In this document: piece by piece, positions 1,717 through 18,326 of the stretch
Layout of the letters: each line of letters starts with the position of its first letter
Numbering within the stretch: position 1 is the first letter of the stretch
IMG/VR virus record: IMGVR_UViG_3300027545_000003
Coordinates: 1 to 42,290 of that record
DNA: 42,290 bases
Strand: one strand, 5' to 3'
From: a virus
Taxonomy: Duplodnaviria > Caudoviricetes
Position numbers and translations under genes: made by a program
The notes under the pieces: generated by a model
Seen by the model: the letters and a program-made list of their open reading frames with translations, nothing else
What the model was told of the DNA's origin: nothing
Databases searched by the model: none

Positions 1717-2172
1717 ATGGACCTTAGCGAAGCGAACCAAACCGAACACCCCAAAAGGGCTGCGTTTCTCGCGGCAATCGCCGAATGTCCATCTGTGCGT
1801 GGAGCTGCGCGGGCCGCTGAAATATCGCGCACCACCCACTACGAGTGGATGAAAGAACAGGACTATAAGCGGGCGTTTGAGGTTGCCTGGGAGCGCGGAA
1901 AGCAGGCGCTTCACGATACCGCGGTAGAGCGCGCCAATGAAGGAAAGAGCGACGTTCTTCTGATTTTCTTACTGAAGGGCGCGTATCCTGAAACCTACCG
2001 GGAAAGATGGGATGGACACCTGAGCGGAAAGGACGGAGGACCGATTGAGCACTCCGACGTCAGCGCCCGGCAACTCCTCGCAGATCGAATTGCTGCGGAG
2101 CTTGCCGGCGGCGGCGAAGGCCAGGATACTTGCGGCACTGACGGAGAAACAATGCCGGGATCTGCTGTATGA
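1717..2172 (+). CDS. terS: Terminase small subunit
   Basis: HTH (SVRGAARAAEISRTTHYEW) and SDVLLIFLLKG...PETYRER motif; immediately upstream of TerL. Confidence 0.85.
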   Translation: MDLSEANQTEHPKRAAFLAAIAECPSVRGAARAAEISRTTHYEWMKEQDYKRAFEVAWERGKQALHDTAVERANEGKSDVLLIFLLKGAYPETYRERWDGHLSGKDGGPIEHSDVSARQLLADRIAAELAGGGEGQDTCGTDGETMPGSAV

Positions 2173-4330
2173 CTGGCAGGCGAACGCCCGGCCGGCGCAA
2201 CTACCGCCCGGCATCCCCGGTGCTCAATTTTCGCGCCGCGACTGGGTCTTCTGGCTCGTGCAGGCTGGCCGCGGATGGGGGAAAACCCGCGTAGGCGCGG
2301 AGACCACGCGCCTGTGGGGGCGCAATCCCAAAGAACGAATCCTGATGGTCGCCTCCGTCGCGTCCGACGTGCGCGAAGTCATGATCGAAGGTCCATCCGG
2401 TCTGATGAGTTGCTACCCGCCGGGCCAGCGTCCAGACTACAACCCGTCAAGGCACCTCGTCACGTTTCCATCCGGCGCAGTAGGAATCACGCGATCGGCC
2501 GACGAACCCGAACGGCTCCGCGGTCCGCAGTTCACCAAGTTCTGGGCGGATGAGCTATGCCTCGCAAGAGGAACGCAAATTGAAACACCATCTGGGCCGC
2601 GTGCGATTGAGACGATTCGATCTGGCGATATCGTCCTCACGCGCGTTGGACCGCGCCCAGTTGTCCGATCACAGCGGACATCTCGAAGCGCGCCACTCTG
2701 GAAACTGACCGCATCCGATGGTAGGACTTTAATTGGCACCGCAGGCCACCCCGTTTTGTGTAACGGTACTTTCGTTCCATTGAGCCAAGCGCAATGCGGA
2801 GCTACCCTGGAAACATGGCAGGCGAGCCAAAATCGGTCATGTGGGGCGGTCGCCGCTGGTTTCTCAACGGCGGCTATTACATGTCGCGAACCGGCTCTCT
2901 GCTTCATCTTGCCGTCTATCGCGCGCACCATGGGGCGATTCCGAAAGGCCACGACGTTCACCACAAGGACGAGAATAAAGCAAACTTTTCACCGGATAAC
3001 TTGGAGGCGCTTACTCGGCGCGATCATCTCAAACGGCATCGACCACGCGGATGGAAGGCCCATACACCCGAGCAGCGAGCTGCCAAGACACGAGCCCAGT
3101 GGGACGCCGCCAATCCGCGAGATGTTGTCTGTGCGCGATGCGGTCGCATGTATCAGTCTCTCGGAACGCGGGCCCGCTTCTGTAGTGGGCTTTGCAAAGG
3201 AAGATGGTGGAGGGCTAACCACCCAACCGTCAATCGCCCACGGAAACCAGCGCGCAAGCGTCCCGAGCAACGCAGACCGGATAAATCTTGCGCCACATGC
3301 GGAACAGCGTTCCACGCGAATGATCCACGCACCCAGACGTGTTCCCGCAAATGCGGAGCCGCTTACCGTGCGACGCGTTTCGAGGACCGACGAGTGCGGC
3401 GAAGTCTACAATCTTGAAGTCGCAGGTCAGCACGAATACTACGCAAATGGCATCCTGACGCATAACTGCGCCTGGCGCTTTGCACAGCAGGCGTGGGATC
3501 AGATCATGTTCGGGTTTCGGCTGAAGTCGAAACATTTGCAGGGCATCATCACCACGACGCCAAAGCCAATTCCGGTCATCAAAGACATCATCGCCAAGCC
3601 TTCAACCATCGTGACGCGCGGCAGCTCCTACGACAATCGGTCGAACCTCAGCGACACCTACTACCAGACGGTCATCACCCCGTACGAAGGAACGCGCCTA
3701 GGCCGGCAGGAGATCAACGCCGAGCTACTCGAAGACACGCCAGGCGCGCTGTGGACTCGCGCTCTGATTGACGCCGGCAGAATCACGTTTACCTCGATCC
3801 GTTGGGACCTGATTCAGCGAATCGTCGTAGCTATCGACCCGGCGGTGACGAGCGGCGAGTCATCAGCGGAGACCGGCATCATCGTGGCAGGACTAACGGT
3901 GAGCGGACACGTGATCATCATCGACGATCTGTCGCTCCGGGGCACCCCGCTTGAGTGGGCCAACGTCGCGGTGCGCGCCCTGCTCAACCATCGCGGCGAT
4001 CGCATCGTCGGCGAAGTGAACAACGGGGGCGACCTGGTCGAAGCCAACATCCGCGCGGTTGCGCCGAATGTTCCGTTTCGTGCCGTGCGGGCCACTCGAG
4101 GGAAGATGCTGCGCGCCGAGCCGGTATCGGCCCTATACGAACAAGGGCGTGTGCATCACGTTGGGGCGTTCCCAACGCTCGAAGATCAGATGTGTCTCTG
4201 GACGCCGGGAGAGAAATCGCCGGATCGCATGGACGCGCTGGTGTGGGCCGTGACGGAATTGGTGGTCGATCCCGAGCCGGTGACGCAGCGGCTGGTGTTG
4301 AGCGCGATGCCGATGGACCCAGGGTACTAG
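2045..4330 (+). CDS. terL: Terminase large subunit (intein-containing precursor)
   Basis: Walker A AGRGWGKT, LRGPQF..WADE Walker B, ITTTPKP coupling motif, RNase H-like VVAIDPA...SPDRMDALVW; exact start uncertain. Confidence 0.95.
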   Translation: MSTPTSAPGNSSQIELLRSLPAAAKARILAALTEKQCRDLLYDWQANARPAQLPPGIPGAQFSRRDWVFWLVQAGRGWGKTRVGAETTRLWGRNPKERILMVASVASDVREVMIEGPSGLMSCYPPGQRPDYNPSRHLVTFPSGAVGITRSADEPERLRGPQFTKFWADELCLARGTQIETPSGPRAIETIRSGDIVLTRVGPRPVVRSQRTSRSAPLWKLTASDGRTLIGTAGHPVLCNGTFVPLSQAQCGATLETWQASQNRSCGAVAAGFSTAAITCREPALCFILPSIARTMGRFRKATTFTTRTRIKQTFHRITWRRLLGAIISNGIDHADGRPIHPSSELPRHEPSGTPPIREMLSVRDAVACISLSERGPASVVGFAKEDGGGLTTQPSIAHGNQRASVPSNADRINLAPHAEQRSTRMIHAPRRVPANAEPLTVRRVSRTDECGEVYNLEVAGQHEYYANGILTHNCAWRFAQQAWDQIMFGFRLKSKHLQGIITTTPKPIPVIKDIIAKPSTIVTRGSSYDNRSNLSDTYYQTVITPYEGTRLGRQEINAELLEDTPGALWTRALIDAGRITFTSIRWDLIQRIVVAIDPAVTSGESSAETGIIVAGLTVSGHVIIIDDLSLRGTPLEWANVAVRALLNHRGDRIVGEVNNGGDLVEANIRAVAPNVPFRAVRATRGKMLRAEPVSALYEQGRVHHVGAFPTLEDQMCLWTPGEKSPDRMDALVWAVTELVVDPEPVTQRLVLSAMPMDPGY
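2558..3466 (+). mobile_element. Intein (303 aa) inserted immediately after the TerL Walker B motif
   Basis: N-terminal CLARGTQIETPSG, block B GTAGHPV, block F VYNLEV, block G YYANGILTHN followed by +1 Cys; removal restores WADEL|CAW. Confidence 0.93.
2794..3417 (+). CDS. HNH homing endonuclease with zinc-ribbon DNA-binding tail, encoded in an alternative frame within the intein
   Basis: LHLAVYRAHHGAIPKGHDVHHKDENKANFSPDNLEALTRRDH (HNH_3-type); CARC..CSGLC and CATC..CSRKC; start at 2794 or 2815. Confidence 0.88.
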   Translation: MRSYPGNMAGEPKSVMWGGRRWFLNGGYYMSRTGSLLHLAVYRAHHGAIPKGHDVHHKDENKANFSPDNLEALTRRDHLKRHRPRGWKAHTPEQRAAKTRAQWDAANPRDVVCARCGRMYQSLGTRARFCSGLCKGRWWRANHPTVNRPRKPARKRPEQRRPDKSCATCGTAFHANDPRTQTCSRKCGAAYRATRFEDRRVRRSLQS

Positions 4331-4389: not shown

Positions 4390-4611
4390 ATGCAAATAAC
4401 AATCAGCACCACTTCAAAGGTGGTTCAGCTTAACGGCATAGATTGCCGGATTTGGGAAGGCGAAACAGAGAAGGGAATCAAAATCCACTGTTTCATTCCA
4501 AGGATCGCCGCAAAGGATGATCAGGACCTTTCCCAGTTTGCTGCTGAACTGTCAGAGCAAAGACCACCTTCGGCAGAGGTCGCTGCGATTCCATTGCGCC
4601 TGATCCTGTGA
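4390..4611 (+). CDS. Hypothetical protein
   Basis: Clean ORF downstream of a TTGCTT..TAGGAT promoter-like sequence; overlaps next gene start. Confidence 0.65.
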   Translation: MQITISTTSKVVQLNGIDCRIWEGETEKGIKIHCFIPRIAAKDDQDLSQFAAELSEQRPPSAEVAAIPLRLIL

Positions 4612-5411
4612 CTGACCCACTCGTTTGCGCGATAATGCTGACGCGCGATCGCCCCGGGATGGCTGCTCGCGCCGTGGCCAGCTTCCGGACGCAGACGTAC
4701 GCGAACAAGCGCCTGTTTGTTCTGGATAACGGCGATGGAGATTTGCTGAGATCGACACTACCGTTTCAGTCTGGAGAAGCTTGGCTGAATTGGAATCCCG
4801 CGCGCGGAAAATCCATAGGCGTACTCAGAAACATGGCTGCGGAATTGTCATACACCGGACTAGGAATGCCGCAACTAGAGGATGAGCTGCCGGAGATCGT
4901 TGTGCATTGGGACTCGGACGACGTCAGTCACCCCAACCGCATCGCCGAGCAAGTGGCGCTGCTGCAGTCGAGCGGCGCGGACTGCGTCGGGTACCGCGAC
5001 ATGCTGTTCTGGCGAACAGGAATCCGCAAGCAGTCAACGGTAGGCGACTATATCGAGATCATCGACGGCGAAGCATGGGTGTTCACCGGCGGCACGCCCA
5101 ACTACGCGCTCGGCACGTCGCTCTGCTACTGGCGGCAGACATGGGCGCGCAAGCCGTTCCTCGATCTGTCGCAGGGCGTCGAGGAGAAATGGTGCGACGG
5201 GCTGAAGGTGGTGAGCGTCGCCTCAATGATCGACCCATGTGTCGGGGGGGCGGCCGCTACAGAAATCAGTGAGCCCCGCATGATCGCCTCGATCCACGGA
5301 GGCAACACGAGCACGGGCTACGATATCGAGAAGTACGTGCGCGACGGAAGCAAGCAATGGCAGCGGGCCCCAGAGTGGGACAATTACTGCCACGAAGGGA
5401 TGAAACTATGA
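4608..5411 (+). CDS. Glycosyltransferase family 2 (GT-A)
   Basis: VCAIMLTRDR...QTY...VLDNG; HWDSDD DxD motif; HPNRIAEQV. Confidence 0.88.
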   Translation: MTDPLVCAIMLTRDRPGMAARAVASFRTQTYANKRLFVLDNGDGDLLRSTLPFQSGEAWLNWNPARGKSIGVLRNMAAELSYTGLGMPQLEDELPEIVVHWDSDDVSHPNRIAEQVALLQSSGADCVGYRDMLFWRTGIRKQSTVGDYIEIIDGEAWVFTGGTPNYALGTSLCYWRQTWARKPFLDLSQGVEEKWCDGLKVVSVASMIDPCVGGAAATEISEPRMIASIHGGNTSTGYDIEKYVRDGSKQWQRAPEWDNYCHEGMKL

Positions 5412-5587
5412 GCGAAGAAGACAAGCAGACATTCAATCAGGGGCGTCCGTACGTGGTGGGTGCCGTGGCGTTAGCGGTAATCTTGGCGCGCCCCAAGGCG
5501 CACCTATCCCAGACCCCCGTAGAGATCGCCTTCGATGAAGCGGAGGCTTTTGTTGCCGAGTTCGAGAAACGGAACGGAATCGCATGA
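5408..5587 (+). CDS. Small helical hypothetical protein
   Basis: ATGA-coupled on both sides. Confidence 0.6.
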   Translation: MSEEDKQTFNQGRPYVVGAVALAVILARPKAHLSQTPVEIAFDEAEAFVAEFEKRNGIA

Positions 5588-6396
5588 GCGTCTGGGTGAC
5601 GATCCCCTCGGCGCGCCCGGTCGAGGAAGTGGCGAAGTGGGCCGCGGCGTGGAAGAGTAGCGGGTACAGGATTGCGCTGTGGCGGGACGATGGACCATGG
5701 ACCGAGGAATGGGGCGCAATAGGTGTGGAGATGGTTTTGACGGATGAAAAGTATCCCGGTTACGCACAGGCCATCAATTCCATGATTAAGGTGCTCACGC
5801 TTGGGTATAATGATCCGCTGCATGACGCCGAGTGGTTCATCATCGGCGGGGATGACGTCTGGCCTGACCCGAACCACACAGCAGAACAGATCGCGTGGGA
5901 GTGCGGCAAGCACTTTGCGCTCACCACGTCAAGTAGCGGCGGCTCCTGGGTTCCAGGAACCTTCGGCGTCATGCAGCCCACCTCGGATAGGTGGGGCGAG
6001 AATCCGTCGCATCCGAATCCAGTTCTTCAGTCGGCGTACATTGACCGGGTTGCTGGTAGCGCGTGGTTTGGCCGGGAGTATTGCACGCGCGTGAACCAAG
6101 GGCGCGGCCCGCTTTGGCCCGAGTACCAGCATATGTTCGTAGATCAGGAGGCGCGTGCCGTAGCCGTGAAGCTTGGGGTTTATTGGGAGCGCCCGGACCT
6201 TCTGCACCATCACGCGCACGCGGGGCGCGTAAAGAACTACGATGTGTCGATGATCCCGCCACACCTGAAGAAATGGACCACGGGTCCAGAGGGGCGCGCG
6301 CATTGGCAGGAATCCGAGGCTTTGTACAAGCGCCGGGAAAGCGATGACTTCCCTGGTCACGAACCGTTGCTCTGCTACGACAATCGGATCAAGTAG
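5584..6396 (+). CDS. GT-A fold glycosyltransferase-like protein
   Basis: VTIPSARP, AQAIN, IIGGDDVWP (xDD motif), YQHMFVDQE. Confidence 0.75.
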   Translation: MSVWVTIPSARPVEEVAKWAAAWKSSGYRIALWRDDGPWTEEWGAIGVEMVLTDEKYPGYAQAINSMIKVLTLGYNDPLHDAEWFIIGGDDVWPDPNHTAEQIAWECGKHFALTTSSSGGSWVPGTFGVMQPTSDRWGENPSHPNPVLQSAYIDRVAGSAWFGREYCTRVNQGRGPLWPEYQHMFVDQEARAVAVKLGVYWERPDLLHHHAHAGRVKNYDVSMIPPHLKKWTTGPEGRAHWQESEALYKRRESDDFPGHEPLLCYDNRIK

Positions 6397-6407
6397 GTGC
6401 AAGCTCA

Positions 6408-7148
6408 ATGAAAGCCGTCATCTGCACAGTCGCGTGGAAGGGCTGGTACCGCAAGGGCCTCGAGCGCCAGATCCGGGAATTCGAGCGCGTCTCGCCCGGC
6501 TACGAGTTGCAAGGCTGGCTGAACGTTCTACCGCCCGGTACGCCGCGCCTCGTCAAGGATGGCGTCGACTACACCGGTTACTCCGCGAAGCCTTGGGCGA
6601 TGAAGTACGCGATGGACAGCGGGGCCGATGTCGCGCTGTTGATCGACGCCAGCGTTTACCCGATCAGGCACATTGAGCCACTCCTCGATTTCATCTGGGA
6701 CCACGGGTACTACTTGGCGCCGGCTGGTTTCACTGTTGGCGAGTGGACCAACGATGAGATGCTGGCCAGCTTCGGGATGGATCGCGATCACGCGCTCAAG
6801 ATACCGGACGTGGCGAGCGGAATCGTGGGGCTGAGGTTGGACGGGCTTAATCCAACGCCTATTCAGGTCGCAGTAGAGCAATGGTGTGTTTCCACCACAG
6901 AGCCCGGCTTCGCCGCGCCGCACTCCAACATCCACGCGGCCAACAAGCGCCACCATTACCGGAATGTCGGCCACGTGAGCTACGATCCGCGGTGCTCGGG
7001 CCATCGCCAGGACCAATCGGCGCTGAGCCTCATAGCCCATCGGTTAGGGTTGACAGATCTCACTCCGTGGCCCAGATTTGTTGCGTACCAAGCGGGACAC
7101 GGAGGGAAATCGAATGAGACGACGGTGCTTGAAATTGCGGGGATGTGA
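6408..7148 (+). CDS. Nucleotide-diphospho-sugar transferase-like protein (DUF1647-like GT-A)
   Basis: KPWAMKYA...LLIDASV, HRQDQSALS motif. Confidence 0.7.
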   Translation: MKAVICTVAWKGWYRKGLERQIREFERVSPGYELQGWLNVLPPGTPRLVKDGVDYTGYSAKPWAMKYAMDSGADVALLIDASVYPIRHIEPLLDFIWDHGYYLAPAGFTVGEWTNDEMLASFGMDRDHALKIPDVASGIVGLRLDGLNPTPIQVAVEQWCVSTTEPGFAAPHSNIHAANKRHHYRNVGHVSYDPRCSGHRQDQSALSLIAHRLGLTDLTPWPRFVAYQAGHGGKSNETTVLEIAGM

Positions 7149-7151
7149 ACT

Positions 7152-7346
7152 TTGAAACATTTCGCAAATAACACTGACTACTACGACGCCCTGAAACGGA
7201 TAACCCTTTACGATTCCGTTGAGAGATTACGCAAGAGGGCTGAGCGCGATTACGGATTGACTCCAGGCGAGGCCATCGAAATGGCATACGAGAATATAAA
7301 GGCAGAGGCCGAAGCGGCAATTCGCGGAAAGCGCAGGCCGCGATGA
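7152..7346 (+). CDS. Hypothetical protein
   Basis: Fills the gap in the operon; ATGA overlap with next gene. Confidence 0.6.
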   Translation: MKHFANNTDYYDALKRITLYDSVERLRKRAERDYGLTPGEAIEMAYENIKAEAEAAIRGKRRPR

Positions 7347-7942
7347 CGTATAGCCAGAACAACGAGCAAACCTACATCCTTGAAGCGTTCGGGGAAAAGA
7401 ACGACGGCAGGTTCCTGGACATCGGAGCGTACGACGCGAAGTTGCTATCGAACACCCGCGCTCTGTACGAACGCGGATGGTCAGGGGTGATGGTCGAGCC
7501 TTCGCCGGGCCCGATGAAGCAACTGCTCGCGGAGTACGGCAACGATCCGCGTATCACTCTCGTGATGGCTCCGGTCACCAAGACTTGCGAGATGGTGAAG
7601 ATTCACGGGACTGACGACGCGATCAGCACTTCAAGCGAGACCGCTTTGAAGATTTGGAAGGACGGCGGATACGAGTTCTACGGCTCATTCCTGACGCAGT
7701 CAATCACGCTGGACCTGCTGGTGTACCGCTTCGGCGTTGCGTGGGATTTCATCAACATCGACGTGGAGGGCGGCTCGGCTGACCTGTTTCTTGCGTGCCT
7801 CGGGTTCCCGCTGCGCCCGAAGGTTTACTGCGTCGAGCATGATCACCGGCACGGGGAACTGGTGCCGATCGCGGCGAAGGCGGGATACCGCGAAGTCTCG
7901 CGCAACGGCGAGAATTGCATTTTCGTGAAGGGGGAGGCGTGA
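7343..7942 (+). CDS. FkbM-family SAM-dependent methyltransferase
   Basis: YSQNNE, FLDIGAYD..SNT, GWSGVMVEP, DFINIDVEG. Confidence 0.9.
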   Translation: MTYSQNNEQTYILEAFGEKNDGRFLDIGAYDAKLLSNTRALYERGWSGVMVEPSPGPMKQLLAEYGNDPRITLVMAPVTKTCEMVKIHGTDDAISTSSETALKIWKDGGYEFYGSFLTQSITLDLLVYRFGVAWDFINIDVEGGSADLFLACLGFPLRPKVYCVEHDHRHGELVPIAAKAGYREVSRNGENCIFVKGEA

Positions 7943-8112
7943 CAGTAGTAATCCTCAAGCAGTACATGAAGGCAGCCCTGGAAGATCTCCAGCGTGATGG
8001 GATTTGGGTCCGTGAAATTGATTTACAGTGGGCAACGAACGTAGAGGCTAAGGACGTTGCAAAGCCTAAGGCTTTAGTCGAGTGCGAGATATCCTTCAGG
8101 GCCGAATTATGA
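7939..8112 (+). CDS. Hypothetical protein
   Basis: GGAGG RBS, GTGA overlap. Confidence 0.5.
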   Translation: MTVVILKQYMKAALEDLQRDGIWVREIDLQWATNVEAKDVAKPKALVECEISFRAEL

Positions 8113-8387
8113 TTATCGACCCGCACGATCCCGAGCGCGCCGCAGACATCCTCAACGATTTCGTAGCGCTGTGCCGGAAACACAAATGCGTGATCCTGAA
8201 CAGCAAGGGGCAAACGATTCTAGCGAAGATGAGCGGCGAAATCCCGACGCTGGCGGAAGTAGAGAAAATGCGCATCATGGGCACGCGCCCGGCCTGCACG
8301 GCGCTGGCAGTGGTCGAGGAGATCAACCCCACGTGCGTGGTGTGGGCGAACGTGCAAGGGCCGATCACGGCGAAGGGGAAGGGATGA
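8109..8387 (+). CDS. Hypothetical protein
   Basis: ATGA-coupled ORF. Confidence 0.55.
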   Translation: MIIDPHDPERAADILNDFVALCRKHKCVILNSKGQTILAKMSGEIPTLAEVEKMRIMGTRPACTALAVVEEINPTCVVWANVQGPITAKGKG

Positions 8388-8578
8388 TGCAGCAGGCCAA
8401 TCACACGGTGACGGAGGGCCAAGCTAAGGTGCTCCATGCGGCCCTGGTGGCACTTCGCGCGGCAGAGTCGGCCATCATCGACGCGCTCGCAGACAAGGAC
8501 CCGGCGGCCAACTTCACGCCATCCGAGTCCGCGTGGGTCGAAGCATTTCGCAAGCAGGCGCTTATCGAAAGGATTTAA
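8384..8578 (+). CDS. Hypothetical protein
   Basis: ATGA-coupled ORF. Confidence 0.55.
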   Translation: MMQQANHTVTEGQAKVLHAALVALRAAESAIIDALADKDPAANFTPSESAWVEAFRKQALIERI

Positions 8579-8584
8579 AGCAAA

Positions 8585-8932
8585 ATGAAAATCGTCCCGC
8601 GAACAAAAATCGTGAAAGTGGCGGCCTGCTCAATCCCGGATTGCGACCGTGAGGCGTCGGAGGGGTGCCTTGGGTGCCATATCAGATTCTGCGTTTCTCA
8701 TTCATTCGAGCACGCCGCAAGGGTTTCCACTGAGTTTAGTGTAACCGCGTTGGATTTTACATCCTCCCAGCCGACCGCTCCATTCCGGGTAGTGCTCTGC
8801 GAAGAGTGTCAAAAGAAACCACAGGCAATTGAACTGATCGAGGCGTACAGGGTGGCCAACGAAGCAATCAAGCGCGCCGGGGACTCTATTATGCCGGTGA
8901 TTGAGACAAAGTATCCACAAAGGGGTAAATGA
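8585..8932 (+). CDS. Cys/His-rich zinc-finger protein
   Basis: CSIPDC..CLGC..FCVSH, LCEEC. Confidence 0.6.
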   Translation: MKIVPRTKIVKVAACSIPDCDREASEGCLGCHIRFCVSHSFEHAARVSTEFSVTALDFTSSQPTAPFRVVLCEECQKKPQAIELIEAYRVANEAIKRAGDSIMPVIETKYPQRGK

Positions 8933-8948
8933 TCATCGACGCGGAAGG

Positions 8949-9908
8949 ATGGGCGCTTTGAAAATCATCGCGATCATGCCGGTGAGAAACGAAGCGTGGG
9001 TACTCGGCCTCAGCCTGCGTGCCGCGCTCGAATGGTGCGATGACGTGATGGTCGGCCTCCACGACTGCACGGATGAGTCAAAGACCATCGTCCGGGAGAT
9101 CCAGGCTGAGCGCGGTAAGGTTGCGTACTGCGAGTTCGTGGGCGGAACGTGGACGGAGATGGCTCACCGGCAGACCCTACTGAACGGGGCGCGGGCGATG
9201 GGTGCGACACATATCGTGATCCTGGACGCGGACGAGGTTTTGACGGGAAATCTGTTGGCGCTTATTGAGCCTGCCGTGTTCGACAGGTGGGGTAAACGGC
9301 AATCTGTAATCGGCTACCACGTAACCTGTCTCGCCACTGGAACGGTGCTTCAACTCCCCTGGCTCGCGCTCCCGCGGACCATAGACCGCTATCTGACTGC
9401 GGGAGCCTGGGGGCTTGGCCAGCAAGTCTCGATGTCCTTTGTGGATCAACCGTCGGCACACTGGGCGCTCCACGACGGGCGCGACTTCCACCACCGCAAC
9501 CCGATGGGTATCGGTCGATCTTTTCGCGCTCCGCTAAAACCAGAACAGGGAGGGCTGATGCACCTTCAGTTTCTCGGCGAGCGGAGGCTACGGGCGAAGC
9601 AGGCGCTCTACAAGGCTGTCGAGATGATCCGCTGGCCAGCGCCGTGCATGCTGGAGGGAAAGTACTGCGCGAACAAGGAAATGCTGGCCGAGCGGCTCAA
9701 CTGGATGTACGGACGTGCCGTCTATGAAAGCGACCCGGCCAAGTACGCGAGTGCTCCGTGTCCGGAGAGCTGGTGGCAGCCGTATGAGCGCCTGATGAAA
9801 TACTTGGACGTGGACGCCGAGCCGTGGCAGGAGGGCGAATTAAAGCGCTTGATTGCCGAGCACGGGGGCGAGAAGTTAGCTGGGTTAGACTTCTTTGGCG
9901 TCGCCTAA
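8949..9908 (+). CDS. Glycosyltransferase family 2
   Basis: IIAIMPVRNEA, DCTDES, HIVILDADE DxD motif; start at 8949 or 8958. Confidence 0.88.
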   Translation: MGALKIIAIMPVRNEAWVLGLSLRAALEWCDDVMVGLHDCTDESKTIVREIQAERGKVAYCEFVGGTWTEMAHRQTLLNGARAMGATHIVILDADEVLTGNLLALIEPAVFDRWGKRQSVIGYHVTCLATGTVLQLPWLALPRTIDRYLTAGAWGLGQQVSMSFVDQPSAHWALHDGRDFHHRNPMGIGRSFRAPLKPEQGGLMHLQFLGERRLRAKQALYKAVEMIRWPAPCMLEGKYCANKEMLAERLNWMYGRAVYESDPAKYASAPCPESWWQPYERLMKYLDVDAEPWQEGELKRLIAEHGGEKLAGLDFFGVA

Positions 9909-12306: not shown

Positions 12307-12460
12307 CATCCTGGGAAGCACCGCTCAACGGCGTCATGTCCAAGACGGTCAAGTACGACCGTCGATGCAAGGTGGAGATTGTCAAGCTTCAAACGGACTA
12401 TCGACGTTGCGGCTTTCGCAGGCAGAAATCCAGAGGGACAGACGGTAAAGGATGGCATCG

Positions 12461-13075
12461 ATGAACCTGTATCTGATGCGCCATACGCAGCCCGTAACCG
12501 GCCATCCCGCCAACGCCGAGAGACCGCTAACACCAGAGGGCGAGCAGTGCGCCAAGGACATGGCCGCGTGGCTCGCGGGACACATCGGGCGCGTCGATAT
12601 CGTGATCCATTCTCCGTTTGTCCGCGCAGTTCAAACGGCCATACCGACGAGCGAGGCACTTGGCGCGCACATGGCCGACACGCGCATGCTTCAACCTGAT
12701 GGCAAGCCAGCGGAAATGTGGGCAGAGATCACGCGGCTGGCGCAGGCGTCGAAAGATGTGCTGGTGGTTGGCCACGATCCCAGTTTGAATGCGTTGATCT
12801 GCTGGATGCAAGGAAACGAGCTTGATGACACCGACGGTACGAACTGCGTGCGGCTGGAATGGGGATCGGTGGCTCTGCTGGCGGTGAAGGGGACGGGAAC
12901 CGGAGTGCTTCAGTGGCTGGTGACGCCCGCGATCGTGCTCGCGGACAAGGACGTTGTGGAGGCAGCGCGCGAACTGGTGGATAGCGTCGAAGCCGCGAGA
13001 CCCTCAATCCAAACAATTATGGCTGCGGACAAAGAGATTATCGAGGCGGCTCGGGAGTTGGCGGCATCTCTTTGA
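12461..13075 (+). CDS. sixA: SixA-like phosphohistidine phosphatase (histidine phosphatase superfamily)
   Basis: LYLMRH, RPLTPEG, SPFVRAVQTA, VLVVGHDP, LQWLVTP; extra C-terminal EAARE repeats. Confidence 0.85.
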   Translation: MNLYLMRHTQPVTGHPANAERPLTPEGEQCAKDMAAWLAGHIGRVDIVIHSPFVRAVQTAIPTSEALGAHMADTRMLQPDGKPAEMWAEITRLAQASKDVLVVGHDPSLNALICWMQGNELDDTDGTNCVRLEWGSVALLAVKGTGTGVLQWLVTPAIVLADKDVVEAARELVDSVEAARPSIQTIMAADKEIIEAARELAASL

Positions 13076-13231
13076 AGCGGGACCCAGCGTTGACGGCCCC
13101 TAGTCCGGCCATCATGGTATGGATTGAAGTCACGACGACGTAGCAGAACTCCCCGCGCTTAGGGCACACCCACACAATCACGTGGCAAAGCTCGACGACG
13201 AGGGAGCACCTGATCTCGTACACGATACGTT

Positions 13232-13456
13232 TCAGCATACGTGGATTTCCCTTCCCCGCAGCAGCGCGAGCACGGCCGCCTTCGCCGGGATATCAGCCAC
13301 AGGCACGCCAGCGGTGAAGGCCACCGTCTGCCAATCCCGCTCCGGCATCATCGCCACGCACTTCGCGAGCTGGTGGCGGGTGAGCGTCGATTGCGCCTGG
13401 CAGCCCAACAGGAAAGCGGCGATCACGCGGGCTTTCTTGATTTGATATCCGGTCAT
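13232..13456 (-). CDS. Hypothetical protein
   Basis: MTGYQIKKARV...; TTGCGC-17-CAAAAT promoter just upstream. Confidence 0.6.
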   Translation of the reverse strand: MTGYQIKKARVIAAFLLGCQAQSTLTRHQLAKCVAMMPERDWQTVAFTAGVPVADIPAKAAVLALLRGREIHVC

Positions 13457-13520
13457 GATTAATTTTGCGTCGCAGGCTTGAATCGCGCAATAGTACTTGT
13501 TTCGTAGTACCGTAGTTCCA

Positions 13521-13841
13521 GTGACACCCCAGCGCCAAGCGCTACTCGAAAGGATGAAGAAAATCATGGCCTCCATTGCCAGCAACCTATCCACAACCCA
13601 AGCAAACCTCGCCGCCGCGCAAGCCAGTCTGGCCAATATCGTGGCTGGCGTTGCCGCGCTCGACACCCTTATCCAGAGCTTTGAGAGCGGCTCGACGTCG
13701 GAGTTGAACCCGACAGACCAGGCAGCGCTCAACAGCATCGTCGCGCAATCCGCCGCGCTCGCAGCTCAGGCCGCTTCCATCAACACCGCCGCTCCAGCGC
13801 CTCCGGCTTCGCCGTCCGGTGTCAAACCCAGCGGAAGCTAG
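13521..13841 (+). CDS. Ala-rich coiled-coil hypothetical protein
   Basis: -10 box TACCGT 7 nt before GTG; alternative ATG at 13566. Confidence 0.65.
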   Translation: MTPQRQALLERMKKIMASIASNLSTTQANLAAAQASLANIVAGVAALDTLIQSFESGSTSELNPTDQAALNSIVAQSAALAAQAASINTAAPAPPASPSGVKPSGS

Positions 13842-17750: not shown

Positions 17751-17903
17751 ATGGAGCAAGAACAGCAGTTCGTTGCCGTGGTGGCGGCCATCATCATGAG
17801 CGGCAACCACACCCCCGATGCGGCGCGCATCAAGGCTTCCGTGATCGCCGCGCGCGCCATTATCGCAGAGGTCGCAGCGACGGAACCGAAGGAGAAGGCG
17901 TAA
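17751..17903 (+). CDS. Small hypothetical protein
   Basis: 50-aa ORF exactly filling the gap between protease and cement genes. Confidence 0.55.
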   Translation: MEQEQQFVAVVAAIIMSGNHTPDAARIKASVIAARAIIAEVAATEPKEKA

Positions 17904-18326
17904 ATGATAAACCAAATCAATACCGGCAGTCCCACCAGTCGGCGCAACGTCGTCCTTCCGCCAAGCACCACGGTGGTGATCCCGCCAGGCACGCCGCTAC
18001 TGATCGGGCTGCTTCCGTGCGTCACTCTCGACGGAAATCAATTCGCCGTGGGCGCTCCCTCTGTCGTCTGCCTCTTTGGCGGAAGCTTCGACCTGACTGT
18101 GATCGGCCAAACCGCCGAGTCTCCGGTCACCACCCACAAGATCAACCCGGGCGACAAGTTGTATGCCACGGGGACGCTGGACGCAACTACGAACGTCACC
18201 TACAACCTGACGATCGACGCGAACAGCGGCAATACGTTTTTCGGCTGGCTCGATCCGCAGTCTCCCTCGATTGCGGCGGGAACCACGGACACCAGCGCCT
18301 CAGTGCTGCTCGACAAGGGCATGTAA
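17904..18326 (+). CDS. Capsid cement/decoration protein (DUF2190-like)
   Basis: Beta-rich; GSFDLTV, INPGDKLY; directly before MCP. Confidence 0.7.
   Translation: MINQINTGSPTSRRNVVLPPSTTVVIPPGTPLLIGLLPCVTLDGNQFAVGAPSVVCLFGGSFDLTVIGQTAESPVTTHKINPGDKLYATGTLDATTNVTYNLTIDANSGNTFFGWLDPQSPSIAAGTTDTSASVLLDKGM

What the first reader, a model, noticed from the sequence alone, without database searches (positions are those of the whole stretch)
2558..3466. Terminase intein carrying its HNH homing endonuclease as an overlapping out-of-frame gene
Seen: TerL contains a complete intein (C1 at 2558, HN|C at 3461-3469). Its ~200-aa central region has no recognisable LAGLIDADG or HNH motif in frame. A second frame (+2 relative to TerL), 2794/2815-3417, encodes an intact HNH domain (HHKDENKANFSPDNL...H) plus two CxxC..CSxxC zinc ribbons, and it lies entirely between intein blocks B and F. 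Both frames stay open for more than 600 nt. Established: intein endonucleases are normally in-frame domains at this position, and terminase ATPase motifs are common intein sites. Inference: a free-standing HNH invaded a mini-intein, and the DNA now encodes both a splice-tolerant filler and a separately translated (internal start or frameshift) endonuclease, uncoupling homing from splicing. I cannot say from here whether this family is already reported.
Basis: partly seen in the sequence, partly recalled or inferred. Interest (0 to 1): 0.88.

Follow-up and report, generated by a model that had tools for sequence, protein, structure and literature searches.

The report
Terminase intein hiding out-of-frame HNH nuclease
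A phage DNA-packaging gene carries a predicted self-splicing insert (intein) whose DNA also encodes, in a shifted reading frame, an intact HNH nuclease that is likely made as a separate protein and likely copies the insert into empty versions of the gene; the layout is real and widespread, and its general kind has been in print since 2015.

Summary
Confirmed. terL (2045-4330) of a tailed phage holds a 303-aa class 1 intein (2558-3466) right after Walker B. Its spacer is the shadow of an HNH_3/two-zinc-ribbon gene in the +2 frame (probable start 2815, stop 3417). A sister phage, mostly 95-99% identical, lacks exactly these 909 nt. The layout is a family trait: 68 non-redundant loci in terL and portal genes, all with an intact HNH. 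dN/dS is mostly 0.1-0.45 in the HNH frame and about 1 in the spacer, and stops are purged from the intein frame. Family-wide Shine-Dalgarno enrichment and no conserved slippery site favour internal initiation; this copy's own signal is weak. Likely action: nick-initiated homing. Expression, cutting and splicing are untested. Corrections: the HNH stop lies inside block F, and related mini-inteins are deletion products, so any invasion is ancient. The kind is in print: brucellaphage terL intein with out-of-frame HNH (2015), endonuclease VII in frame 3 (2025), dnaX +2 LAGLIDADG (2026). This I-HmuI-like +2 family was not found in print. The scan has noted this layout before (44 findings, at least 42 genomes). 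New variant of a known kind; interest 0.4.

The parts
1717..2172 (+). terminase small subunit gene (context)
   Evidence: PHROG terS E 2.4e-12
2045..4330 (+). terL precursor ORF, 761 aa (N-extein + intein + C-extein)
   Evidence: TTG start with strong anti-SD pairing, -9.5 kcal/mol
2540..2557 (+). Walker B motif (FWADEL) ending the N-extein; left half of the insertion site
   Evidence: sequence; motif name recalled; D169 and E170 invariant in alignment A2
2558..3466 (+). class 1 intein, 303 aa, Cys1 ... His302-Asn303; absent as an exact 909-nt block in the sister phage
2558..2827 (+). N-terminal splicing region (block A Cys1; block B Thr61-x-x-His64 at 2738-2749)
   Evidence: pLDDT 83-97; C1, T61, H64 invariant in 14 family inteins
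2837..3340 (+). in-frame filler (residues 94-261), predicted disordered, the shadow of the HNH codons
   Evidence: pLDDT <50; dN/dS 0.62-1.97
3365..3466 (+). C-terminal splicing region (blocks F and G); block F spells the HNH stop
   Evidence: pLDDT >90
3467..4330 (+). C-extein beginning with Cys+1; rest of the ATPase and the RNase H-like nuclease domain
   Evidence: Terminase_6C E 3e-10; 286 of 287 aa identical to intein-free P0046
2815..3417 (+). HNH endonuclease gene in the +2 frame, 200 aa from the probable start ATG 2815 (alternative ATG 2794, 207 aa)
   Evidence: closest homologues begin at the Met equivalent to 2815
2899..3027 (+). HNH_3 catalytic core (H56, H57, D59, N64, N69, H78 of the 207-aa form)
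   Evidence: Pfam E 1.7e-15; these residues invariant in 19 family members (numbered there from 2815); best fold match I-HmuI 1u3e
3130..3195 (+). zinc ribbon 1 (C113, C116, C130, C134)
3289..3354 (+). zinc ribbon 2 (C166, C169, C183, C187)
   Evidence: weak Pfam DUF2116 treble clef E 6.3e-5
2798..2801 (+). GGAG, the only SD-like core near the start; 13 nt before ATG 2815, longer than usual
   Evidence: -5.8 kcal/mol; matched by 13% of synonymous resamples; no core at 4-11 nt

Best explanation
The 909-nt insert in terL is a dual-coding element: its terL frame encodes an intein with all class 1 splicing residues that is predicted to splice itself out together with a disordered filler, and its +2 frame encodes an intact HNH zinc-ribbon endonuclease that is likely translated on its own from ATG 2815 and likely nicks the empty terL site of co-infecting relatives, so that repair would copy the whole insert across (homing). 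Shown: the two open frames, the catalytic residues, purifying selection on the HNH frame and stop avoidance in the intein frame across the family, and an exact presence/absence difference between near-identical phages. Inferred: splicing (terL is essential, all residues present), internal initiation (family-level SD signal), nicking rather than double-strand cutting (likeness to I-HmuI), and the target site (spliced junction after Walker B). The +2 phase is cheap: a stop in the intein frame needs a Leu/Ile/Val/Met codon in the HNH, and these proteins are poor in those residues.
For: Selection: in 31 pairs with at least 52% HNH identity the HNH frame is always the more conserved; dN/dS 0.11-0.45 in 26 of 27 computable pairs (one 3-substitution pair 0.66; 4 saturated) against 0.62-1.97 in the filler (30 computable); window vs L190 53% vs 27% identity, 0.16 vs 1.28. 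All 68 non-redundant nested loci keep an unbroken HNH frame. Stops: 5.1 of 68 expected stop-free in the intein frame; third frame 14.3 expected, 14.5 seen; 8 free-standing relatives have 2-10 stops in that frame; LIVM 12.8% vs 24.7% in TerL. Start: ATG in +2 at offset 240-292 in 52 of 68 vs 33 of 204 background windows; SD core 4-11 nt upstream in 23 of 62 vs 137 of 1364 controls, p 4e-8; mean pairing -4.08 vs -2.56 and -1.80 and vs -3.26 under synonymous resampling, p 0.008; the base after the start codon is never A (0 of 62), which would put TGA in the intein frame. Mobility: contigs of runs X2, X3, X4 join 2557 to 3467 with flanks about 95-97% identical and match the phage over 4.4-24 kb mostly at 95-99% or more; third-position GC 0.48 in the intein vs 0.74-0.77 in the exteins; HNH groups with HNHs from the same site (SH-aLRT 88). 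Folds: HNH pLDDT 90, best match I-HmuI E 9.5e-4; intein matches gp41-1 intein, TM 0.86 of target. I-HmuI nicks one strand (PMC3017599 passages).
Against: No expression, splicing or cutting data. This copy has no SD core at normal spacing and its -5.8 kcal/mol is matched by 13% of resamples; 27 of 62 family loci are no better than their resampled mean, and part of the purine signal may come from intein codons. dN/dS pairs are not independent (15 of 31 come from one cluster of 6), were aligned and picked on the HNH frame, and those involving the window are near saturation. The intein-free sister shows gain or precise loss, not which; X2/X4 and X3/X5 look like duplicate data sets, so there are two observations. 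The I-HmuI match is weak (TM 0.28 of query; sequence E 0.016).
Confidence: 0.8

Rival explanations
1. The HNH is reached by a programmed -1 ribosomal frameshift (+2 equals -1), giving a TerL-N/intein-N/HNH fusion instead of a free protein.
For: The phase is the one a -1 shift would enter; the +2 frame opens 51 nt before ATG 2815; this copy's SD is weak.
Against: No X_XXY_YYZ heptamer in the window; 10 of 68 loci have one, at scattered offsets. No unusual RNA structure at 2770-2850 (z 0.35). A start codon at a conserved offset and SD enrichment are not needed for a frameshift.
Confidence: 0.07
2. The HNH is kept for the phage's benefit (a terminase cofactor in packaging, or a weapon that cuts terL of competing relatives), with homing secondary.
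For: Strong purifying selection; nearly all hosts are packaging genes; the brucellaphage paper raises a terminase link (PMC4422536 passage); a search listing shows interference competition by an intron endonuclease (PMC11620839, abstract start only).
Against: A near-identical phage lacks the whole element and mini-inteins that lost the HNH persist, so it is dispensable; HNH relatedness follows insertion site, as expected for a site-specific selfish nuclease. Interference is a side effect of the same cutting, not a separate mechanism.
Confidence: 0.08
3. This copy is a silent relic or an artefact: a once in-frame or once active HNH, shifted by compensating indels or assembly errors.
For: No raw reads or RNA were available; weak SD; in-frame (L059) and split (L008, L022) relatives exist.
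Against: All catalytic and zinc ligands intact; +2 phase in 61 of 63 and 47 of 51 long inteins, including cultured phages TJE1, Highwayman and phiCDHM19; start and stop at family-typical offsets.
Confidence: 0.04

Closest known systems
Brucellaphage (Tb, Pr and others) terL intein with out-of-frame HNH (Tevdoradze et al. 2015, PMC4422536; GenBank JN939331 ORF07/ORF08)
   Same: [quoted passage not shown] Its splicing domains hit this family's profiles.
   Different: Phase +1, not +2; zinc ribbons first and HNH (PF01844) last; only the 35-column catalytic motif aligns (HHalign 49%, E 1.7e-4); another insertion site.
Actinobacteriophage inteins with an endonuclease VII-like HEN in frame 3 (Gosselin, Arsenault, Gogarten; bioRxiv 10.1101/2025.01.02.630785)
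   Same: Same strand, same phase, unstructured in-frame spacer, same proposed origin by a free-standing HEN invading an intein.
   Different: Endonuclease VII-like enzyme; called rare; the HNH inteins there are in frame. No Endonuclease VII family hit for this protein at E 0.1 and no actinophage of that set among its phage matches. Supplementary tables could not be seen.
Cyanobacterial dnaX intein with +2 LAGLIDADG HEN (Phillips, DeSimone, Gogarten; bioRxiv 10.64898/2026.09.14.751524)
   Same: +2 overlapping ORF, SD motifs before its start, frame-dependent dN/dS, coexisting empty, mini and full alleles.
   Different: LAGLIDADG enzyme, cellular host gene, a single site.
ShiLan domain: hidden frame-3 HNH in a phage methylase (Arsenault et al. 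2025, PMC11855218)
   Same: HNH with zinc fingers in frame 3, open in-frame shadow, own start codon.
   Different: No intein; central HNH with ribbons on both sides; only weakly similar (24 bits to this family's profile).
I-HmuI / I-BasI nicking HNH homing endonucleases
   Same: N-terminal HNH_3-type core; best fold and sequence match among solved structures.
   Different: Intron-encoded; C-terminal part does not match (TM 0.28); this protein has zinc ribbons.
[quoted passage not shown] 2009, PMC2677866)
   Same: Endonuclease gene inside intein-coding DNA; relatives L008 and L022 have this layout with the same HNH family.
   Different: Here the intein frame is unbroken, so splicing would be in cis.

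Membership tests
Class 1 intein | Cys/Ser at 1, block B TxxH, penultimate His, terminal Asn, Cys/Ser/Thr at +1 | tested here: met
   C1, T61-A-G-H64, H302, N303, C+1; block names recalled
Class 1 intein | Hint fold from the two termini | tested here: met
   pLDDT >90 at both ends; gp41-1 intein TM 0.86 of target
Class 1 intein | Precise in-frame insertion relative to an empty allele | tested here: met
   909-nt skip 2557 to 3467; P0046
Class 1 intein | Protein splicing | not testable with these tools
   needs expression of the precursor
Canonical full intein (in-frame HEN) | Endonuclease domain in frame between blocks B and F | tested here: not met
   no endonuclease family in frame; spacer disordered
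Non-canonical intein with out-of-frame HEN | Unbroken intein frame with a same-strand endonuclease ORF in another frame | tested here: met
Non-canonical intein with out-of-frame HEN | Purifying selection on the endonuclease frame, relaxed on the spacer | tested here: met
Non-canonical intein with out-of-frame HEN | Separate translation of the endonuclease | tested here: inconclusive
   family-level start and SD enrichment; weak in this copy; no expression data
Brucellaphage terL intein HNH family | +1 phase, ribbons first, C-terminal HNH (PF01844) | tested here: not met
Endonuclease VII-like frame-3 inteins | Endonuclease VII-like domain | tested here: not met
   HNH_3 only; fold search led by I-HmuI; their sequences were not fetched for direct comparison
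HNH homing endonucleases (I-HmuI type) | Intact beta-beta-alpha-metal core with His, Asn and metal ligands | tested here: met
HNH homing endonucleases (I-HmuI type) | Site-specific nicking of the empty allele and gene conversion | not testable with these tools
   indirect only: empty sister allele, site-linked HNH grouping
Group I/II intron | Ribozyme core | tested here: not met
   no intron family in 2300-3700 at E up to 1

The most novel reading that the evidence does not exclude
This is the standard form of homing endonuclease in a large, undescribed clade of phage packaging-gene inteins (hundreds to perhaps thousands of sequence clusters, ten or more sites in terL plus portal), hidden from annotation because gene callers keep one frame only. 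It arose when free-standing terL-targeting HNH genes, which still sit just behind terL, moved into inteins at the one phase their Leu/Ile/Val/Met-poor codons leave almost open, borrowing block F for a stop; separate translation then lets the nuclease dose be set apart from terminase. Nested, split, in-frame, free-standing and mini forms of one family would make the origin and decay of intein endonucleases directly testable.
Probability: 0.5. Interest if true: 0.6.

Novelty: new variant of a known kind. Interest (0 to 1): 0.4.

Why it matters
The layout itself is known, so this locus is no conceptual first. What is added: published cases are called rare, yet this HNH family fills nearly all long inteins of its clade in viral contigs and prophages, including cultured phages where the HNH is unannotated (TJE1, Highwayman, phiCDHM19). 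It is a natural series of 200-codon overlapping genes with a simple codon-level reason for the phase, it holds all life-cycle stages in one family, and this locus comes with a near-identical empty sister allele that names the likely target for a cleavage test. Inteins annotated as having a 'degenerate' spacer should be read in the other frames.

Tried and rejected
No RNA holder listed for the stretch: no evidence either way. Raw reads not available; only contigs were laid. Intein alone as query found 2 proteins and no annotated phage; the family appeared only with the whole precursor and with profiles. Intein-free protein P0046 found no locus in viral contigs. Internal promoter: one 9/12 sigma-70-like match at 2607-2634 and a 5-bp terminator-like hairpin at 2751-2766; across 68 loci 16 seen vs 18.7 expected, rejected. 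Slippery heptamer and RNA structure at the start: none. Intron: no Rfam intron family; one sub-threshold COG3860 match, E 0.041, taken as chance. HNH tree: only the quick tree finished; deep branches open, so single origin and direction (free to nested or the reverse) are not settled. No look-alike windows among the scan's notes. Family size (2,200 clusters at E up to 1e-30) includes multi-Hint proteins and is an upper bound; by my count 125 of the best 150 match over the whole profile including the filler, but their DNA was not checked for the HNH. Papers searched for this family without finding it; subscription journals and bioRxiv supplements were not visible.
Full report
Observation. The window is a tailed-phage contig (terS, terL, portal, protease, tail and tape-measure genes by PHROGs; soil metagenome runs). 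terL runs 2045-4330 without a stop and holds a 303-aa insert from Cys1 (2558) to His-Asn (3461-3466), followed by Cys+1, directly after the Walker B motif FWADEL (motif name recalled). Pfam finds Hint and intein domains but no endonuclease in frame. The +2 frame is open from 2764 to 3414 and encodes HNH_3 (E 1.7e-15) and two zinc ribbons. AlphaFold gives the intein two confident ends and a spacer under pLDDT 50 (residues 94-261), matching gp41-1 and DnaB inteins; the HNH frame folds at pLDDT 90 with I-HmuI as the only match at E up to 0.001. One correction: the HNH stop (3415-3417) is spelled by Leu-Glu codons of block F, as in the family, where 64 of 68 stops fall in the last 30 intein codons, most often on Tyr-Asn, Tyr-Asp, Val-Glu or Leu-Glu.

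An empty sister allele. Contigs of runs X2, X3 and X4 join 2557 to 3467, skipping exactly 909 nt, with 12 differences in 222 nt before and 13 in 452 nt after. The same runs match 4.4-24 kb mostly at 95-99% or more, so this is nearly the same phage without the element. X2/X4 and X3/X5 look like duplicate data sets, so this counts twice. Protein P0046 is such an empty TerL: 74 of 74 residues identical before and 286 of 287 after the site. Third-position GC is 0.48 in the intein's N-part against 0.74-0.77 in the exteins, as expected of foreign DNA. Run X1 matches the window with no difference, but may be its source.

A family trait. Of 81 complete inteins in them, 63 were long: 61 carry the HNH in +2 with no stop in the intein frame and 2 gave no HNH hit; 18 were short, 2 with HNH remnants (17 of the 61 are near-copies). 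In 75 loci from prokaryote genomes, 51 long inteins gave 47 of the same kind, 1 with one stop, 1 with a frame break, and 2 without HNH. Ranking was against the window's intein with its filler, which favours this type, so these shares describe the clade, not all inteins. HNH-led searches added nested, split (L008, L022), in-frame (L059) and free-standing members. The 100 nested loci from viral, metagenome and named phage records (the copy of the window dropped; genome loci not included) collapse to 68 at 95% and 63 at 60% identity, all with an unbroken HNH frame. Of 63 N-exteins scanned, 52 hit terminase families, 2 portal and 9 nothing, several of these with terL motifs by eye; insertion sites fall into ten or more classes. 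Cultured phages TJE1, Highwayman and phiCDHM19 carry it with only terL annotated. A profile search gives 2,200 clusters at E up to 1e-30, an upper bound.

Which frame is selected. In all 31 pairs with at least 52% HNH identity the HNH frame is more conserved than the filler. dN/dS is 0.11-0.45 in 26 of 27 computable pairs for the HNH and 0.62-1.97 for the filler; window versus L190 gives 53% against 27% identity and 0.16 against 1.28. The pairs are not independent and were aligned on the HNH frame. Catalytic His, Asp, Asn and the first ribbon's Cys are invariant in 19 members. The intein frame is selected only to stay open: synonymous resampling predicts 3.6 stops and 5.1 of 68 loci stop-free, the third frame has the stops expected (14.5 vs 14.3), and 8 free-standing relatives carry 2-10 stops in that frame. 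The phase has a simple cause: in +2 nesting a stop needs an NTA or NTG codon in the HNH, and Leu/Ile/Val/Met make up 12.8% of these proteins against 24.7% of TerL; the other phase would cost four times as many stops.

How the HNH is likely made. An ATG in +2 lies at offset 240-292 in 52 of 68 loci against 33 of 204 control windows, and an SD core precedes the first ATG/GTG there in 23 of 62 against 137 of 1364 controls. Anti-SD pairing peaks at the start and exceeds synonymous resampling modestly (-4.08 vs -3.26, p 0.008, 35 of 62 better). The base after the start codon is never A. Slippery heptamers occur in 10 of 68 loci at scattered places and not in the window. For this copy the homologues point to ATG 2815, but its GGAG is 13 nt away and no stronger than chance, so expression may be low; it is inferred, not shown.

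Mechanism. Most likely (0.8): terL mRNA yields a precursor that splices out intein and filler to give TerL, and, from an internal start, a small HNH that nicks the empty terL site of a co-infecting relative; repair off the intein-bearing genome copies the 909 nt. Nicking follows from the likeness to I-HmuI, which nicks one strand (PMC3017599, passages). The window's HNH groups with those of L190, L133, L135 and L111, all at the same Walker B site (SH-aLRT 88, quick tree). Intein and HNH distances correlate (rho 0.19, p 0.001; same nearest neighbour in 12 of 63 against 1 by chance), so the two move as one unit, with room for exchange. Rivals: frameshift fusion (0.07), phage-benefit role (0.08), relic or artefact (0.04).

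Origin and decay. Free-standing relatives exist, and L005, L035 and L196 sit directly behind terL, which fits invasion of an intein by a terL-targeting HNH, the route drawn by Dassa et al. (PMC2677866, abstract and section 16). The tree cannot give direction. The mini-inteins seen are losses: L109 equals L135 minus 199 codons, L110, L118, L132 and L136 keep HNH fragments in +2, and P0006, the splicing domain closest to the window's (70%), keeps the first codons of the filler.

Comparison with print. Tevdoradze et al. 2015 (PMC4422536, passages) already state that an intein-encoded HNH lies out of frame within brucellaphage terL; that HNH is in +1, has its catalytic domain last and shares only the motif. 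Gosselin et al. (bioRxiv 10.1101/2025.01.02.630785; abstract, sections 8 and 15, passages) describe frame-3 endonuclease VII-like inteins and the same origin model. Phillips et al. (bioRxiv 10.64898/2026.09.14.751524; part 1 of 4 and passages) describe a +2 LAGLIDADG with SD motifs and frame-dependent dN/dS. Arsenault et al. (PMC11855218; abstract, section 19, first part of section 12) describe a frame-3 HNH without an intein, only weakly related. Eight searches found no account of this +2 I-HmuI-like family; bioRxiv supplements, which may list members, could not be seen. The scan's own notes hold 44 findings of this layout in at least 42 genomes; two gave the leads to the 2015 and 2026 papers, which were checked here.

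Verdict. Real, well supported by comparative evidence, a new variant of a known kind. Interest 0.4; 0.6 if the family's breadth and origin hold up.

Noticed in passing
window 2060-2336: In the intein-free sister phage this stretch (end of terS, first 97 codons of terL) is replaced by 269 unlike letters; protein identity 61 of 95 there against 74 of 74 next to it. A mosaic patch ending 221 nt before the intein; a link to homing co-conversion is possible but untested.
   Followed up: partly
window 4608-9908: Two glycosyltransferase-2-like genes and an FkbM methyltransferase, with two unassigned ORFs, lie between terL and portal; possibly virion or host-surface glycosylation.
   Followed up: partly
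window 7152-7348, 8387-8945, 12309-12425, 13038-13241, 17753-17976: Small blocks that the sister phage lacks or replaces.
   Followed up: no
window 13340-13760: The X1 assembly breaks into short, higher-depth contigs here, suggesting a repeat or variable region.
   Followed up: no
L116 2501-3889, L135 1487-3496, L269 1374-3089, L300 1730-4132: terL genes with two inteins of this family, in L116 and L135 only three codons apart around Walker B.
   Followed up: no
L014 2232-2996, L191 1473-2234, L194 1991-2848: The same nested element in portal genes (for L014 and L191; L194 by flanks), with HNHs fairly close to the window's: a likely host-gene switch.
   Followed up: partly
L005 2540-3022, L035 2465-2932, L196 2513-2947: Free-standing HNH relatives directly downstream of terL; in L005 (Brevundimonas phage Poludnitsa) unannotated.
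   Followed up: partly
L008 2265-3374, L022 2101-3204: Split terL inteins with the same HNH family between the halves; in Vibrio phage 1.238.B the HNH keeps the +2 phase to the N-half.
   Followed up: partly
L288 2001-3052: Closest-type element at the same site with a frame break in the spacer that puts the C-terminal splicing region in the HNH frame; assembly error or a natural step to an in-frame form.
   Followed up: partly
window 2045-4330 in public protein sets: Two gene callers kept the HNH ORF and cut TerL to a 320-aa piece, a third kept the 761-aa ORF: the overlap causes mis-annotation either way.
   Followed up: yes
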